Assembly: GCF_003018255.1 (NCBI RefSeq) | Contig: NZ_CP027440.1 | Strand: one strand, 5' to 3' | Origin: Escherichia coli | GTDB lineage: Bacteria; Pseudomonadota; Gammaproteobacteria; Enterobacterales; Enterobacteriaceae | DNA length: 64,000 bases | Shown: in pieces, positions 4,500-61,318 of the stretch | How positions within the stretch are numbered: position 1 is the stretch's first letter | How the letters are laid out: every line of letters starts with the position of its first letter | Notes under the pieces: model-generated | The model's database searches: none | The model's input: only the letters and a program-made list of their open reading frames with translations | Told to the model about the DNA's origin: nothing | Program-made: the position numbers and the translations under genes

Positions 4500-5684
4500 C
4501 TACCCCAGTGGTTTCGCCAGCACCGGACTATCCGCCGCTTGCTGGCGCTTATAGCGACCATACAGCAGCAACGACGACATCGCAGCAAACGAAAGCAGGG
4601 CGGCAGGTAGCGCCACGTAATTATATGCCAGCCCCAGCGTCAGCATCATACCACCGCAATATGCGCCGACGGCGCTACCGAGGTTAAACGCTATTTGCCC
4701 ACCTGCGGCACCTAATAACTCTCCGCCTTTGGCATTTTGCAGTAACAATATTTGCAGTGGTGCTGAAAGGGCAAATAATCCCGCGCAACAAATAAATGCA
4801 AAAATAAGCGACGTTGTTTTCATGCCGCCGAAGAAAAAGAGCATCAGCAGTGCCAGCACAATAATAAAGTCAGTTACTGCCGCAATGCGCAGTGGTGAAT
4901 AACGTCCTGAAATCCGGCCACTTAGCACATTCCCCAGCACCATCCCTAGCCCCACTAACATCATAATAAAGGTCATTGCCGTTTCCGAAAAACCGGAAAT
5001 AAACATCATGTATGGCTTTACGTAGCTGAACCAGGCAAATACACCTGCGTTGCCAAACATGGTGGCGGCGAAAATTAACCACGGGGCCGGGCTGCGCAAA
5101 AAGTGAAATTGTTCGCGCAGCTTTCCTTTCGCTTCGTCGCGAATATCCGGCACCCAAAAATAGACCGATGCCATCACCGCAATATTAAAAACAGCGATCA
5201 ATAAAAAGGTGTAACGCCAGCTAAATTCCTGACTTAAATACGTTCCCAGCGGAATGCCCAGCAAATTGGCGACTGTCATCCCGGAAACCATCCCCGCCAC
5301 GGCGGCGGTGACTTTTCCGGGTTTGATAATTTTTGATAACACGATCGCGCCGACGCCAAAAAATGCGCCATGCGGAAAGCCGGATACCAGCCGACCAATG
5401 GCGAGCATCAGGTAAGACGAAGAGAGCGTGAACATGGCGTTGCCAATGACGCACAACGCCACCAGAAACAATAAGATATGTTTGAGTGAGTAGCGGCTGG
5501 AAAAGAGTGCGATGATTGGCGCACCGACCACCACCCCCAGCGCATAATACGAGATCATATGCCCGGCAGCAGGAATCGAAATTCCTACGTTATGCGCCAG
5601 CTCCGTAAGCACGCCCATAATGCCAAATTCGGCCATCCCCAAACCAAACGTGCCCAGAGCCAAAGATAAAATGACTTTTTTCAT
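4500..5684 (-). CDS. araJ: MFS transporter AraJ (394 aa)
   Basis: Trimmed to the internal ATG (CAT at 5682-5684); MKKVILSLALGTFGLGMAEFGIMGV... matches AraJ; multiple hydrophobic spans. Confidence 0.92.
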   Translation of the reverse strand: MKKVILSLALGTFGLGMAEFGIMGVLTELAHNVGISIPAAGHMISYYALGVVVGAPIIALFSSRYSLKHILLFLVALCVIGNAMFTLSSSYLMLAIGRLVSGFPHGAFFGVGAIVLSKIIKPGKVTAAVAGMVSGMTVANLLGIPLGTYLSQEFSWRYTFLLIAVFNIAVMASVYFWVPDIRDEAKGKLREQFHFLRSPAPWLIFAATMFGNAGVFAWFSYVKPYMMFISGFSETAMTFIMMLVGLGMVLGNVLSGRISGRYSPLRIAAVTDFIIVLALLMLFFFGGMKTTSLIFAFICCAGLFALSAPLQILLLQNAKGGELLGAAGGQIAFNLGSAVGAYCGGMMLTLGLAYNYVALPAALLSFAAMSSLLLYGRYKRQQAADSPVLAKPLG

Positions 5685-57787: not shown

Positions 57788-58483
57788 TTACTTCAACCCG
57801 GTTTTCTGCTTCATCGCTGCCATCACCGTCGGTTTATCGGCCAGATAATGATGCAAACCGTTGGCACGTAAATTACACGCCGCACAATGACCGCAACCGT
57901 CGCCTTTAATGCCGTTATAACAGGTCAGCGTTTCGTTACGGACTAAATCCAGCTTGCCGTAATAATCTGCCAGCGCCCAGGTTTCCGCTTTATCAATCCA
58001 CATCAGCGGCGTTTCAAAACGAATGTCTTTCGCCATACCCAGACTGACGGCATGGTTCAGTGCTTTCACAAACTCATCGCGGCAATCCGGGTAGCCGGAG
58101 AAATCCGTTTCGCAGACGCCGGTAATCACCGCTTCTGCTTTTACCTGATACGCATATATTGCCGCCAGTGTCAGGAACAAAATATTACGCCCAGGGACAA
58201 ACGTATTCGGGATGCCATCGGCTTCAGGTTCATAATCTGGCACTGGAATGCTGTCACGTGTCAGGCTGCTGACCGCCAGCTCGTTGAGCAGCGTTACATC
58301 AAGAACCTTATGCGCGCGTGCCCCCAGTTTCAGCGCCAGTTCGCGTGCCACGTCGATTTCCGCGCGATGTCGCTGACCGTAATCGAACGTCACGCAATGG
58401 ACTTCATCATATTGTTGTAATGCCTGCACCAGACAGGTGGTAGAATCCTGGCCTCCACTGAACACAACGACAGCACGTTTCAT
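57788..58483 (-). CDS. queC: 7-cyano-7-deazaguanine synthase QueC (231 aa)
   Basis: [39 protein letters not shown]... (PP-loop SGGQDS); C-terminal zinc cluster CGHCAAC. Confidence 0.96.
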
Positions 58484-58547
58484 AGATAATCCTGCTTGAA
58501 CAATAAAAGCGTTATGGTAACGCCTGCGATGAACCCGGACCAGCTAT

Positions 58548-60248
58548 TCATTGCGACGGCGCGGGAAGCCAGGCTTCGGTAAATTCAAACCAGCCTCGCG
58601 GTGTCAGTCGCACACCGTTCACGCCGGGAGGGGCGCTAATGCGATAGTGATAGTTGAACAGCGGCGTCAGCGTCGCATCTGCCATTAACTGGCTAAAAAC
58701 CGCTTTCAGGGCATTAAATCGGTTTTCCTCATCAGGCATTACTTGCACCGCGTCCAGTGTCGATTGCAAATGTGCATATGCTGGAGCGTCGAAAACATGT
58801 GGCCATAGTGGATCGCAACGCAGCCATTGCTCCAGGGTATATTCCGGTGCTTCGCCAATTAATCTGTCGCCCATCATGAGGTCTGCGTGTGCCAGTAGGG
58901 TCGTGTCGTCCCAGTTTTTTGCGTTATGAAAAATAATTGTGAGTTCACAGCCTTCCGCTGCCAGTGTCGCCTGTAGACGTTCTGCCATGGTATGAAGTTC
59001 TATCGGTAGGTGATAAACCAGCGTCAAGGTTTTCGGTAGTTTGACCTCATCCGGTACTTGCCATTGCGGAATAGTCCAGCCTGGCAGTAATGCATGACTG
59101 GCGGTGATCAGGTTTTCTCCGACTTCTAACGTTTGTAATAAACCGGATTGATGAATAATGGAAATCACTTTTCGCGCCTGCCAGAGGGACAGTCGGGGAC
59201 TTTTGCGCAACGTTAAATAGCAAAAACCTAAACTGATGCCACTACTGACCTGGCTGACCCGTTGCAGCTCCTCCGGTTTGCCGATGGTGATTTGCACGGG
59301 ATGCCGACAACTGGTTCCCAAATCTTTTTCGAAAAGCGGCGGAGTTATCCAGTACTCAACCGCTTTAAGCAGCGGATGACGTAAATGGTAATAATCATGG
59401 CTTTCCAGGCGCACCAGCTCCGCTGTGAATTGTGTTAAGCGAAAAGGACCCGTGCCGATCAGTGGGAATTGCGGATGCGCCAGATGGCTGCAATAGCTCG
59501 CCAGTCGGTGCGCAAGCCAGTAATCGGGGCGATGTAAAAAGAAGGTCAGACACTGCGGATGGGTGACTTCAATACGCTTCACGCTAATAAATAATTGATC
59601 CAGTGCTGGCAGTTGTAACAGCAGCAATAATCGCTGGTGTAAGTGTGAGGCTTTTACTGCATCGCCGTTATGCCAGTGTAGGGTTGAACGAAGATAAAAG
59701 TCCCAGCGTAACCCGTCAGTAGAGGTTTCCCAGTGATGTGCTAAATCGCCAATCGGGCGCTGAGTATTATTATCGAAGCGGGTCAGGCCGGAAAATATCT
59801 GCCCGGCCAGATGCTGCTCGGCACGGCCGGGCAAAAAGCCCGGTTGTAGCGGTTCGAGCGGGCGATAGTAGGGAATACGCAACGTGGGCGTATCGTTTTG
59901 CCATTGTCCGCCCATAAACGGCTGTAACAGAGTGCGCAGCTCACCTGGGGCCAGTTGCGCCAGCTCCAGCACATCTTGCTGCTTTCCGGTTTCCAGCGCC
60001 TGTTCCATCATCGCATTGCGTAGCGATTCTGGCGTGACCAGAAAGCGTAGTTGCCCGCGTTTTCCGCGTCCTGACTGCGCCTGCCACTCCAGCCATCCCG
60101 CCTCCTGTGCCTGGCGTAACAGCGTACGAACATGGCGTTCGCTGCAAAAACAGCGTTCGGCCAGTTCGCTGACGGTGACGGTTTGCGGCTTTCCGGCGGA
60201 AGGTTGCCACAGACGTTGATACTGGTTAAGACGGTTGAGCAGTCGCAT
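58548..60248 (-). CDS. ybaE: SgrR-like transcriptional regulator YbaE: N-terminal wHTH plus family-5 solute-binding domain (566 aa)
   Basis: Trimmed to MRLLNRLNQYQRLWQPSAGKPQTVTVSELAERCFCSERHVRTLLRQAQEAGWLEWQAQSGRGKRGQLRFL, which aligns by eye with the SgrR N-terminal DNA-binding domain. Confidence 0.9.
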   Translation of the reverse strand: MRLLNRLNQYQRLWQPSAGKPQTVTVSELAERCFCSERHVRTLLRQAQEAGWLEWQAQSGRGKRGQLRFLVTPESLRNAMMEQALETGKQQDVLELAQLAPGELRTLLQPFMGGQWQNDTPTLRIPYYRPLEPLQPGFLPGRAEQHLAGQIFSGLTRFDNNTQRPIGDLAHHWETSTDGLRWDFYLRSTLHWHNGDAVKASHLHQRLLLLLQLPALDQLFISVKRIEVTHPQCLTFFLHRPDYWLAHRLASYCSHLAHPQFPLIGTGPFRLTQFTAELVRLESHDYYHLRHPLLKAVEYWITPPLFEKDLGTSCRHPVQITIGKPEELQRVSQVSSGISLGFCYLTLRKSPRLSLWQARKVISIIHQSGLLQTLEVGENLITASHALLPGWTIPQWQVPDEVKLPKTLTLVYHLPIELHTMAERLQATLAAEGCELTIIFHNAKNWDDTTLLAHADLMMGDRLIGEAPEYTLEQWLRCDPLWPHVFDAPAYAHLQSTLDAVQVMPDEENRFNALKAVFSQLMADATLTPLFNYHYRISAPPGVNGVRLTPRGWFEFTEAWLPAPSQ

Positions 60249-60347
60249 ATAAACCCGGAACAATATTATTTAACTATTCACTATTACTTCCGTATATATC
60301 AGGTGATACTCAATCACCATTAACCGTGTCACAGAGTGGAGAAAGAA

Positions 60348-61166
60348 ATGGCTCGTCTGGCAGCATTTGATATGGATGGCACTTTATTGATGCCTGACCA
60401 TCATTTAGGTGAGAAAACCCTCTCTACTTTGGCGCGACTGCGTGAACGCGACATTACCCTCACTTTTGCCACTGGGCGTCATGCGCTGGAGATGCAGCAT
60501 ATTCTCGGGGCGCTATCGCTGGATGCATATTTGATTACCGGCAACGGAACGCGCGTGCATTCTCTGGAAGGTGAACTTTTACATCGTGATGATTTACCTG
60601 CGGATGTCGCGGAGCTGGTGCTGTATCAGCAGTGGGATACCCGAGCCAGCATGCATATCTTCAATGACGACGGTTGGTTTACCGGGAAAGAGATCCCTGC
60701 GTTGTTGCAGGCATTTGTCTATAGTGGTTTTCGTTATCAGATAATCGATGTCAAAAAAATGCCACTCGGCAGCGTCACCAAGATCTGCTTCTGTGGCGAT
60801 CACGACGATCTTACACGCTTGCAGATCCAGCTATACGAAGCATTAGGCGAGCGTGCACATTTGTGTTTTTCCGCCACGGATTGCCTCGAAGTGCTGCCGG
60901 TGGGCTGCAATAAAGGCGCTGCATTGACGGTGCTGACCCAACATTTAGGTTTATCGTTGCGCGATTGCATGGCCTTTGGTGATGCGATGAACGATCGCGA
61001 AATGTTAGGCAACGTCGGTAGCGGATTTATTATGGGCAATGCGATGCCGCAATTGCGCGCGGAGCTCCCGCATTTACCGGTGATTGGACATTGCCGAAAT
61101 CAGGCTGTCTCTCACTATTTGACGCACTGGCTGGACTATCCACATCTACCTTATTCCCCCGAATAA
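60348..61166 (+). CDS. cof: HMP-PP phosphatase Cof, HAD superfamily (272 aa)
   Basis: Internal ATG at 60348: [23 protein letters not shown]...: HAD motif I DMDGTLL; C-terminal GDAMND. Confidence 0.94.
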
Positions 61167-61182
61167 CGAGATCCCTTCCAGC

Positions 61183-61208
61183 ACCGGGCAATTGCCCGGT
61201 TTTTTTTG
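61183..61208 (+). terminator. Rho-independent terminator after cof
   Basis: ccgggcaattgcccgg perfect palindrome followed by TTTTTTTT. Confidence 0.8.
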
Positions 61209-61318
61209 CGTTGAATTTGTCATTTTGTGCCGTGGTGTTTAAACCGCACAGAATAAATTGTCGCGATTTCACCTTTAAAATAGAATTAAAAGAGAAAAAA
61301 ATTCTCTGTGGAAGGGCT

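What the first reader, a model, noticed from the sequence alone, without database searches (positions are those of the whole stretch)
58548..61166. SgrR-paralog regulator YbaE is divergent from the HMP-PP phosphatase gene cof
The YbaE N-terminus aligns by eye with the SgrR DNA-binding domain (LWQ..., S.RHVRTLL, GWL.W.A..GRGKR..L.FL) and is followed by a family-5 solute-binding-protein-like domain. This is the same architecture by which SgrR senses a sugar phosphate and activates its divergent neighbour. Here the divergent neighbour, across a 99-bp spacer, is cof. The inference is that YbaE is a small-molecule-responsive regulator of cof, possibly sensing a thiamin-pathway or phosphosugar ligand.
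Basis: inference. Interest (0 to 1): 0.35.

Follow-up and report, generated by a model that had tools for sequence, protein, structure and literature searches.

The report
YbaE regulator with cof operator-promoter
An uncharacterised E. coli protein related to the sugar-stress regulator SgrR sits back-to-back with the phosphatase gene cof, and the 99 bases between them hold a conserved control element built like the one SgrR uses, so YbaE very probably switches cof on or off.

Summary
ybaE (58548-60248, minus strand) encodes an SgrR_N winged-helix domain followed by a complete family-5 solute-binding fold. It is 28% identical to SgrR over its full length. It is divergent from cof (60348-61166) across a 99-bp spacer.

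New evidence supports the inferred regulatory link:
- In 80 ybaE-cof spacers (the window plus 79 loci from Enterobacteriaceae, Erwinia and one more distant genome), a 60-bp module (60251-60310) is almost invariant, while neutral sites are scrambled.
- The module holds an inverted repeat, CGGAAC...(C/G)TTCCG, at a rigid distance from a -10-like GATACT. There is no -35 element.
- The module stays fixed relative to cof. Its distance from ybaE varies from 4 to 286 bp.
- The sgrS promoter has the same layout: a box next to the regulator's start codon, and 49 nt from the GGAA core to the -10.
- A 39%-identical relative carries the same module in front of different genes.

Most likely YbaE binds this module, activates the single-gene cof unit and represses itself.

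The ligand is unknown. That SgrR senses a sugar phosphate is itself unproven; the only in-vitro ligand I found is glutamate. A 2009 paper already proposed that genes divergent from SgrR homologs are their targets. This is a new member of a known kind, of moderate interest and readily testable.

The parts
58548..60248 (-). ybaE coding sequence (566 aa), an SgrR-family regulator and paralog of SgrR
   Evidence: RefSeq annotation; Pfam SgrR_N plus SBP_bac_5; 28% identity to SgrR over the full length; the SgrR equivalog model scores 230 bits against a 476 cut-off, so this is a paralog and not SgrR
59892..60230 (-). N-terminal winged-helix DNA-binding domain (residues 7-119)
   Evidence: Pfam PF12793, 134 bits. 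R38, W52, G60 and R61 are invariant, and C35, R41 and W55 nearly so, across 39 family members. The model shows helix/strand elements of a winged helix.
58551..59891 (-). C-terminal family-5 solute-binding-protein fold, the presumed ligand sensor; no signal peptide
   Evidence: Pfam PF00496; AlphaFold model with pLDDT 88; Foldseek matches to NikA, DppA, CntA and MppA with E down to 5e-28 and TM (target) 0.66-0.72. The N-terminus has no hydrophobic leader (read directly from the sequence).
60249..60347 (.). 99-bp divergent spacer between ybaE and cof
   Evidence: Length is 93-104 bp in 64 of 80 spacers compared; the longer ones carry extra DNA only on the ybaE side.
60251..60264 (+). Distal box AAACCCGGAACAAT (GGAA core at 60257-60260), predicted at about -67 to -54 of the cof promoter and 2 nt from the ybaE start codon
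   Evidence: At least 97% invariant across 77 distinct spacers. It matches the family box AAA-N2-4-GAA(C/A/T), which is found within 35 nt of the regulator's start codon in 8 of 13 SgrR-family loci, against 0.30 expected. K-12 SgrR has AAAAGGGGAAC in the same place, and the SgrR target alaC carries AAAAGGGGA.
60275..60299 (+). Proximal block TATTCACTATTACTTCCGTATATAT, with the inverted half-site CTTCCG at 60287-60292 (TTCC predicted at about -30 to -27)
   Evidence: Near-invariant. The distance from the left box to TTCCG is 33 nt in 77 spacers and 34 nt in 3. TTCCnTATAT is shared with the sgrS promoter.
60305..60310 (+). Predicted cof -10 element GATACT with no recognisable -35; predicted transcription start near 60318
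   Evidence: ATA[CA]T lies exactly 18 nt after the start of TTCCG in 80 of 80 spacers. Conservation decays just downstream of it. The consensus sigma-70 scan finds no full promoter in the spacer. The start position is inferred from the sgrS promoter, where ATAAT lies 12 nt upstream of the annotated SgrS 5' end.
60348..61166 (+). cof coding sequence (272 aa), a Cof-type HAD-IIB phosphatase
   Evidence: NF011705 HMP-PP phosphatase, 555 bits (cut-off 336). The second-best family is YigL at 221 bits.
61183..61209 (+). Terminator-like hairpin plus T-run just after cof, so cof looks like a single-gene transcription unit
   Evidence: decR has its own promoter-like site at 61258-61286. In Enterobacter the next gene is convergent with cof.

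Best explanation
YbaE is a cytoplasmic one-component regulator made of a winged-helix domain and a family-5 binding-protein sensor. It binds as a dimer or higher oligomer to an inverted repeat in the ybaE-cof spacer. The distal box is AAACCCGGAACA (60251-60262) and the proximal half-site is CTTCCG (60287-60292), with centres 31 bp apart, about three helical turns.

The distal box sits at about -60 and the proximal half-site at about -29 of a cof promoter that has a -10 (GATACT, 60305-60310) but no -35. YbaE therefore most likely acts as a ligand-dependent activator of the monocistronic cof gene, as SgrR does at sgrS. The distal box lies between any spacer promoter for ybaE and the ybaE start codon, so the same binding event would repress ybaE itself.

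Shown here: the domain architecture, the conserved module, its rigid coupling to the cof promoter, and its equivalence to the sgrS promoter layout. Inferred: that YbaE is the protein that binds, the sign of regulation, the transcription start, and the existence and identity of a ligand.
For: - Architecture and homology to SgrR are confirmed.
- ybaE is divergent from a cof ortholog in all 79 loci that hold enough upstream DNA to tell: 78 from Enterobacteriaceae and Erwinia, plus a 46%-identical ortholog.
- The window stretch 60251-60310 is mostly at least 97% invariant in 77 distinct spacers. At 4-fold degenerate sites in cof the mean major-base frequency is 0.59, and only 6% of sites reach 0.97.
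- Spacings are rigid: box to TTCCG is 33-34 nt, and TTCCG to ATA[CA]T is 18 nt in 80 of 80 spacers. The distance from the box to the ybaE ATG varies from 4 to 286 nt, so the module belongs to the cof promoter.
- The consensus scan finds no sigma-70 promoter in the spacer.
- The layout matches sgrS: the box immediately follows the regulator's start codon, GGAA to TTCC is 31-33 nt, and the core lies 49 nt from the -10 in cof, in the 46% ortholog, and in three SgrR-clade promoters. The K-12 -10 is anchored by the annotated SgrS 5' end.
- A 39%-identical relative (P0123) carries the same module (box, TTCCG, ATACT; core to -10 is 50 nt) in front of two Gfo/Idh/MocA sugar dehydrogenase-like genes instead of cof. 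The module therefore travels with the regulator, not with cof.
- The family box is enriched: 8 of 13 loci against 0.30 expected. The composite inverted repeat is found in 6 of 13 against 0.18 expected.
- In Vibrio cholerae the SgrR-like DsvR has an 11-bp box right upstream of its own start codon. The same box occurs in the zapC promoter, where deleting it abolished promoter activity and dsvR overexpression no longer restored it (bioRxiv 10.64898/2026.04.01.715812).
- cof is flanked by a terminator-like hairpin and so looks like a single-gene unit.
Against: - There is no experimental evidence of binding or regulation. No paper in the searched library addresses YbaE function.
- The conserved synteny covers a whole vertically inherited block (hupB-ppiD-ybaV-queC-ybaE-cof), so adjacency alone is weak evidence.
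- The cof -10 and transcription start are predictions.
- Five of 13 family loci showed no box within 35 nt of the start codon (one of them, P0124, has a palindromic version further upstream), and the alaC promoter has only one half-site at a different distance.
- An operator spanning -30 could equally serve repression.
- The published SgrR footprint (Vanderpool & Gottesman 2007) could not be read, so equating the box with the SgrR site rests on conservation and on my memory of that paper.
- ybaE is disrupted in some E. coli lineages, so its function is dispensable there.
Confidence: 0.62

Rival explanations
1. YbaE binds the same module but acts as a repressor of cof. It occludes the -35/spacer region, is released by its ligand, and also represses ybaE.
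For: The proximal half-site lies at about -30 to -27, overlapping the region RNA polymerase must contact. SgrR is reported to autoregulate negatively (stated). The module also overlaps the ybaE 5' region.
Against: The promoter lacks any -35 match and the consensus scan finds no promoter, which is typical of activator-dependent promoters. The distance from the distal box to the -10 is the same as at sgrS, where SgrR is an activator. In the DsvR system the equivalent box is needed for activation.
Confidence: 0.2
2. The conserved spacer module is the core divergent promoters, or the site of a different factor. YbaE's real targets lie elsewhere, in a dispersed regulon like that of DsvR, and the adjacency to cof reflects inherited gene order.
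For: The whole block is syntenic by descent. DsvR controls many unlinked genes. ybaE and cof were not reported as co-regulated in the few expression papers that mention ybaE.
Against: The module matches the SgrR-family box and geometry. It accompanies the regulator when the target gene differs (P0123). Its distal box copies the position of the SgrR and DsvR boxes next to the regulator's own start codon. Each E. coli genome has only one copy of the module detectable by blastn, although that search cannot see short weak sites.
Confidence: 0.12
3. YbaE is a periplasmic substrate-binding protein of an ABC transporter. This is the older annotation, repeated in some papers.
For: The family-5 binding-protein fold. 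[quoted passage not shown]
Against: The N-terminus is a winged-helix SgrR_N domain and not a signal peptide. No permease or ATPase genes are adjacent. It is collinear over its full length with the transcription factor SgrR.
Confidence: 0.01

Closest known systems
SgrR with its divergent sgrS/sgrT-setA promoter (E. coli glucose-phosphate stress response)
   Same: - The two-domain architecture is the same, with 28% identity over the full length.
- The regulator is divergent from its target.
- The box sits immediately next to the regulator's start codon (AAAAGGGGAAC versus AAACCCGGAACA).
- An inverted TTCCnTATAT half-site lies 31-32 nt downstream.
- The GGAA core is 49 nt from the -10, and the -35 is weak or absent.
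   Different: - The target is a protein-coding phosphatase gene with a 5' UTR of about 30 nt, not a small RNA.
- There is no efflux pump gene in the unit, because a terminator follows cof.
- The flanks of the box core differ (CCC versus GGG).
- YbaE fails the SgrR equivalog threshold (230 versus 476 bits).
- The inducing condition is unknown.
SgrS-mediated activation of yigL (a Cof-type HAD phosphatase) within the SgrR regulon
   Same: A regulator of the SgrR family ends up raising the level of a Cof-subfamily HAD-IIB phosphatase. YigL is the second-best family match for Cof, and the yigL link is described in PMC4021124.
   Different: In the SgrR system the link is indirect and post-transcriptional: the sRNA stabilises yigL mRNA. 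Here the link would be direct and transcriptional. The physiological substrate of Cof in this context is unknown. HMP-PP phosphatase is the NCBIfam name. Broader in-vitro activity on phosphosugars and PLP is my recollection of the HAD phosphatase surveys and was not checked here.
DsvR (Vca0578) of Vibrio cholerae, an SgrR-like activator of zapC
   Same: It has an HTH plus SBP_bac_5 architecture. An 11-bp box lies immediately upstream of its own start codon and is repeated in a target promoter, where it is required for promoter activity.
   Different: DsvR controls a dispersed regulon that includes cell-division and catabolic genes, and it has no divergent phosphatase. Its box sequence is given only in a figure, so it could not be compared.
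Other SgrR-family clades seen here (P0123, P0124, P0155)
   Same: - P0123 (39% identity) has the same box, TTCCG and ATACT module.
- P0124 has a perfect palindrome, AAACAGGAACA-N21-TGTTCCTGTTT.
- P0155 has the box and is divergent from a HAD-IA sugar-phosphatase-like gene.
   Different: The neighbouring genes differ: Gfo/Idh/MocA dehydrogenases, a PTS EIICB, and a HAD-IA phosphatase. None has cof.

Membership tests
SgrR family of transcription regulators (Pfam SgrR_N + SBP_bac_5) | N-terminal SgrR_N winged-helix domain | tested here: met
   PF12793 at residues 7-119, 134 bits against a cut-off of 24. The CS.RH.RTLL and GRGKR motifs align with SgrR.
SgrR family of transcription regulators (Pfam SgrR_N + SBP_bac_5) | C-terminal family-5 solute-binding fold, cytoplasmic (no signal peptide) | tested here: met
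   PF00496, 62 bits. The model has pLDDT 88 and matches NikA/DppA-type proteins at E 5e-28. The N-terminus is the HTH domain.
SgrR family of transcription regulators (Pfam SgrR_N + SBP_bac_5) | Sequence-specific DNA binding and transcriptional control of a target | not testable with these tools
   Only indirect evidence: a conserved operator-like module with family-typical sequence and position.
SgrR family of transcription regulators (Pfam SgrR_N + SBP_bac_5) | Family box next to the regulator's own start codon in a divergent promoter region | tested here: met
   AAACCCGGAACA lies 2 nt from the ybaE ATG. The same placement is seen in SgrR, P0248, P0144, P0155, P0122 and P0123.
SgrR proper (NCBIfam equivalog NF010149) | Score at or above the equivalog cut-off | tested here: not met
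   230 bits against a cut-off of 476, with 28% identity to K-12 SgrR.
SgrR proper (NCBIfam equivalog NF010149) | Divergent sgrS/sgrT small-RNA gene | tested here: not met
   The divergent gene is cof, and the predicted 5' UTR of about 30 nt leaves no room for an sRNA. There is no Rfam hit in the spacer.
Cof / HMP-PP phosphatase (NCBIfam NF011705; Cof-type HAD-IIB) | Score above the equivalog cut-off, with the Hydrolase_3 fold family | tested here: met
   555 bits against a cut-off of 336; PF08282 at E 1.5e-51. Enzyme activity itself was not tested here.
Periplasmic ABC-transporter substrate-binding protein, family 5 | Signal peptide and adjacent permease and ATPase genes | tested here: not met
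   The N-terminus is a DNA-binding domain. The neighbours are queC and cof.

The most novel reading that the evidence does not exclude
YbaE-Cof is a second, sRNA-free 'phospho-metabolite stress' circuit paralogous to SgrR-SgrS-YigL. An SgrR-type sensor directly switches on a Cof-type phosphatase when a still unknown phosphorylated metabolite, or a proxy ligand, builds up. More broadly, SgrR-family regulators share one portable promoter cassette: a box abutting the regulator's start codon, an inverted half-site three helical turns away, and a -10 element 49-50 nt from the box core. During evolution this cassette has been placed in front of different sugar-metabolism genes, including a small RNA, phosphatases and dehydrogenases.
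Probability: 0.3. Interest if true: 0.55.

Novelty: new member of a known kind. Interest (0 to 1): 0.4.

Why it matters
ybaE is one of the remaining uncharacterised putative transcription factors of E. coli, and I found no description of how cof is regulated.

This analysis turns a guess from gene order into a precise, cheap experiment. It names the operator bases (GGAA at 60257-60260 and TTCC at 60288-60291), a predicted transcription start (about 60318), a predicted sign (activation plus self-repression), and natural split-ybaE strains to compare.

If confirmed, it would assign a regulator to a y-gene and give the SgrR family a consensus operator and promoter geometry usable for regulon prediction in other species. 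It would also suggest that Cof's physiological role is inducible detoxification of a specific metabolite rather than constitutive thiamin housekeeping.

Tried and rejected
- **Upstream TTG start (60263).** The ORF tool lists this start. I rejected it because the frame between it and the ATG is not conserved in other species (the distance from the box to the ATG varies by non-multiples of three) and RefSeq uses the ATG.
- **Riboswitch or sRNA in the spacer.** There is no Rfam match even at E up to 1, and the 5' UTR is only about 30 nt.
- **A cof-decR-mdlAB operon under YbaE control.** This is unlikely. A terminator-like hairpin follows cof, decR has its own promoter-like site, and in other genera a convergent cysteine desulfhydrase-like gene follows cof.
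- **Synteny as independent evidence.** I discounted it, because the whole block is inherited vertically.
- **A second module copy in E. coli.** blastn finds one place per genome, but that search cannot detect 11-bp sites. The one-mismatch box at window 5313-5324 is inside a gene and is within chance expectation.
- **A CRP-like half-site (TCACA) downstream of the -10.** I noticed it by eye. It is weakly conserved and badly placed, and I did not pursue it.
- **The published SgrR footprint.** Vanderpool & Gottesman 2007 (PMC1899371) is not held, and the supplementary intergenic alignments of Horler & Vanderpool are not held either.
- **Family members without the box.** P0125, P0130, P0213 and P0147 show no box in the 150 nt scanned, so the box is not universal in the family.
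- **Metagenome scan for more family loci.** I did not run it. Results would be ranked by similarity to E. coli and would add little diversity for the cost.
Full report
**What is there**

The window region matches Escherichia coli. A 2.9-kb query is 100% identical to strain JNE23-011, and 5424 of 5426 complete E. coli genomes carry the region. RefSeq annotation of that strain gives, in window terms:
- queC (57788-58483, minus strand)
- ybaE (58548-60248, minus strand; 'SgrR family transcriptional regulator', 566 aa)
- cof (60348-61166, plus strand; 'HMP-PP phosphatase')
- decR, then mdlA

The spacer is 60249-60347, exactly 99 bp.

**The proteins**

YbaE carries Pfam SgrR_N (residues 7-119, E 3e-39) and SBP_bac_5 (E 6e-17). 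On NCBI's SgrR equivalog model it scores 230 bits against a cut-off of 476, so it is a paralog and not SgrR.

An AlphaFold2 model built on 39 family sequences has mean pLDDT 88. Beyond the winged helix it matches complete NikA/DppA/CntA-type family-5 binding proteins (Foldseek E down to 5e-28, about 510 aligned columns). Sequence search of the PDB returned only binding-protein chains matching the sensor domain, with no SgrR-type regulator among them.

Cof scores 555 bits on the HMP-PP phosphatase equivalog. Its next-best family is YigL, the phosphatase whose mRNA is stabilised by SgrS in the SgrR regulon (PMC4021124).

**What was already known**

Horler & Vanderpool 2009 (PMC2760817) placed YbaE in 'Clade 2' of the SgrR homologs and called it a protein of unknown function. 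They hypothesised in general that genes divergent from SgrR homologs are their regulatory targets. In the full-text library I searched, no paper tests YbaE function. The mentions are screen or expression lists, some of which call it periplasmic.

The only in-vitro ligand I found is glutamate (Lempp et al. 2019, PMC6775132).

**Comparative evidence on the spacer**

A scan of one genome per species returned 80 YbaE-clade loci from Enterobacteriaceae and Erwinia, with 55-94% protein identity. In all 78 loci that hold enough upstream DNA, and in a 46%-identical ortholog from another genome, ybaE is divergent from a cof ortholog. This alone is weak evidence, because the whole hupB-ppiD-ybaV-queC-ybaE-cof block is inherited together.

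The spacer itself is much more telling. Across 77 distinct spacers, window positions 60251-60310 are mostly at least 97% invariant, and conservation collapses just after position 60310. At 4-fold degenerate sites of cof in the same genomes, the mean major-base frequency is 0.59 and only 6% of sites reach 0.97.

The conserved part has three elements:
- a distal box, AAACCCGGAACAAT (60251-60264)
- a proximal block, TATTCACTATTACTTCCGTATAT (60275-60297), whose CTTCCG (GTTCCG in many genera) is the inverted copy of CGGAAC
- a -10-like GATACT (60305-60310)

The spacings are rigid. Box to TTCCG is 33 nt in 77 spacers and 34 nt in 3. TTCCG to ATA[CA]T is exactly 18 nt in 80 of 80 spacers. TTCCG to the cof ATG is 53-63 nt, with one exception at 73. 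In contrast, the distance from the box to the ybaE ATG ranges from 4 to 286 nt, because every longer spacer carries its extra DNA on the ybaE side. The module is therefore part of the cof promoter.

The consensus scan finds no sigma-70 promoter in the spacer, because there is no -35 match 16-18 nt upstream of GATACT. That is the usual look of an activator-dependent promoter.

cof is followed by a terminator-like hairpin (61183-61200 plus a T-run), and decR has its own promoter-like site. In Enterobacter the next gene is convergent with cof. cof therefore looks like a single-gene unit.

**Link to the SgrR family**

I read each regulatory region outward from the regulator's start codon.

In K-12 the sgrR-sgrS spacer reads CAT-AAAAGGGGAAC-N-TTTTCCCTATATT-N-CAATAAT, followed by the annotated SgrS 5' end. 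The ybaE-cof spacer reads CAT-AT-AAACCCGGAAC-N-CTTCCGTATAT-N-GATACT.

The distance from the GGAA core to TTCC is:
- 31 nt in cof and in its 46% ortholog
- 32-33 nt in K-12 SgrR, a Photorhabdus-like SgrR (P0248) and an SgrR with a divergent SgrT ORF (P0144)

The core-to--10 distance is 49 nt in all five. Transferring the SgrS 5' end puts the cof start near 60318, the distal core at -61 to -58 and TTCC at -30 to -27.

A 39%-identical relative (P0123) carries the same cassette (AAAACCTGAACA ... ATTCCG ... GATACT, core to -10 of 50 nt). There it sits in front of two Gfo/Idh/MocA sugar dehydrogenase-like genes, not cof. The cassette therefore follows the regulator, which is hard to explain unless it is that regulator's own operator.

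Other family members show related arrangements:
- P0124, at 37% identity, has a perfect palindrome, AAACAGGAACA-N21-TGTTCCTGTTT.
- P0155 has the box and is divergent from a HAD-IA sugar-phosphatase-like gene.
- The promoter of alaC, a known SgrR target, contains AAAAGGGGA.

Over 13 family loci, the box occurs within 35 nt of the start codon in 8 (0.30 expected from shuffles). The composite inverted repeat occurs in 6 (0.18 expected). Five loci lack the box within 35 nt of the start codon, so it is not universal.

Independent experimental support comes from Vibrio cholerae. The SgrR-like DsvR has an 11-bp box immediately upstream of its own start codon. The same box occurs in the zapC promoter, where deleting it abolished promoter activity and dsvR overexpression no longer restored it.

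The putative recognition-helix residues (C35, R38, R41) are invariant or nearly so across the family. That fits a shared GGAA core.

**Mechanism I commit to**

I put this at about 0.6. YbaE binds the inverted repeat and activates the -35-less cof promoter from a position equivalent to SgrR's at sgrS. Because the distal box lies next to its own start codon, it also represses ybaE. A ligand bound by the family-5 sensor domain modulates this.

A repressor reading of the same binding event is the main rival (about 0.2). That the module serves another factor is less likely (about 0.1). The old 'periplasmic binding protein' label is wrong, given the domain order and the neighbours.

The ligand cannot be inferred from these data. 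The neighbours of related clades are sugar enzymes and phosphatases, and Cof is close to YigL. This makes a phosphosugar-type stress at least as plausible as a thiamin signal. The glutamate result for SgrR warns against assuming that the ligand is the phosphatase's substrate.

**Verdict**

No binding or expression data exist, and the ligand remains open. It is a new member of a known kind, with a sharply defined set of experiments. Interest is moderate.

Noticed in passing
L099-L101 (E. coli contigs); corresponds to window about 59880-60248: In some E. coli lineages ybaE is split into a 115-154 aa SgrR_N-only ORF and a 444-aa binding-protein-only ORF (P0023; 305 member sequences, at least 24 contigs). 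In L101 the cause is a 1-nt deletion near codon 101. The different N-terminal ORF lengths suggest more than one independent lesion. cof is intact in all three loci, and the spacer was confirmed identical in L101. These are natural test strains.
   Followed up: partly
L023 1993-3039 (Enterobacter hormaechei), and most non-Escherichia loci L008-L086: Other Enterobacteriaceae carry a 348-aa L-cysteine desulfhydrase-like gene (NF052478, 569 bits, just under the 600 cut-off). It is convergent with cof and lies between cof and decR. E. coli and E. albertii lack it, so decR directly follows cof there.
   Followed up: partly
Spacers of L009, L010, L012, L013, L015, L018, L037, L038, L045, L047, L053, L085: In several Citrobacter, Klebsiella and Raoultella species the ybaE-cof spacer is enlarged to 123-382 bp. 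The insertions are always between the ybaE start codon and the distal box, and some share sequence (…CATCCTTCA.GC…CACCCCAGTCAC…), which hints at a small repeat element.
   Followed up: no
L090 3001-6795 / L093: Two SgrR-family genes sit in tandem (P0125 and P0130) between fimbrial usher/adhesin genes and a GerE/LuxR regulator. No family box was seen upstream of either.
   Followed up: no
L089 2040-2961: An SgrR-like regulator (P0155, 42% identical to SgrR) is divergent from an 81-aa ORF of no known family and then a HAD-IA sugar-phosphatase-like gene (NF008610, 158 bits, below cut-off). This is a second pairing of this regulator family with a HAD phosphatase.
   Followed up: partly
window 58484-58547 (minus strand): queC follows ybaE by 64 nt on the same strand in nearly all loci. 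The only terminator-like feature between them is weak (58525-58507; 8 pairs, 3 of them G-C). Read-through from ybaE into queC cannot be excluded.
   Followed up: no
L002 (K-12 72000-80000): sgrR lies directly upstream of sroA-thiBPQ (thiamine uptake) on the same strand, while its paralog ybaE lies next to the thiamin-related phosphatase cof. This may be coincidence. One paper reports that thiQ is not co-induced with sgrR (PMC8743547).
   Followed up: no
window 58400-61300 versus 60249-60312: The window strain belongs to a minority lineage: only 109 of 5424 E. coli genomes are at least 99% identical over the 2.9-kb region. Yet the 64-bp module is at least 99% identical in 5214 genomes.
   Followed up: no
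window 5313-5324 (minus strand): AAACCCGGAAAA, one mismatch from the distal box, lies inside a 422-aa ORF. This is within chance expectation (0.27 per window).
   Followed up: yes
P0002: A single 818-aa gene call fuses the YbaE and QueC domains. It has one member on one contig and is probably an indel or assembly artefact.
   Followed up: no
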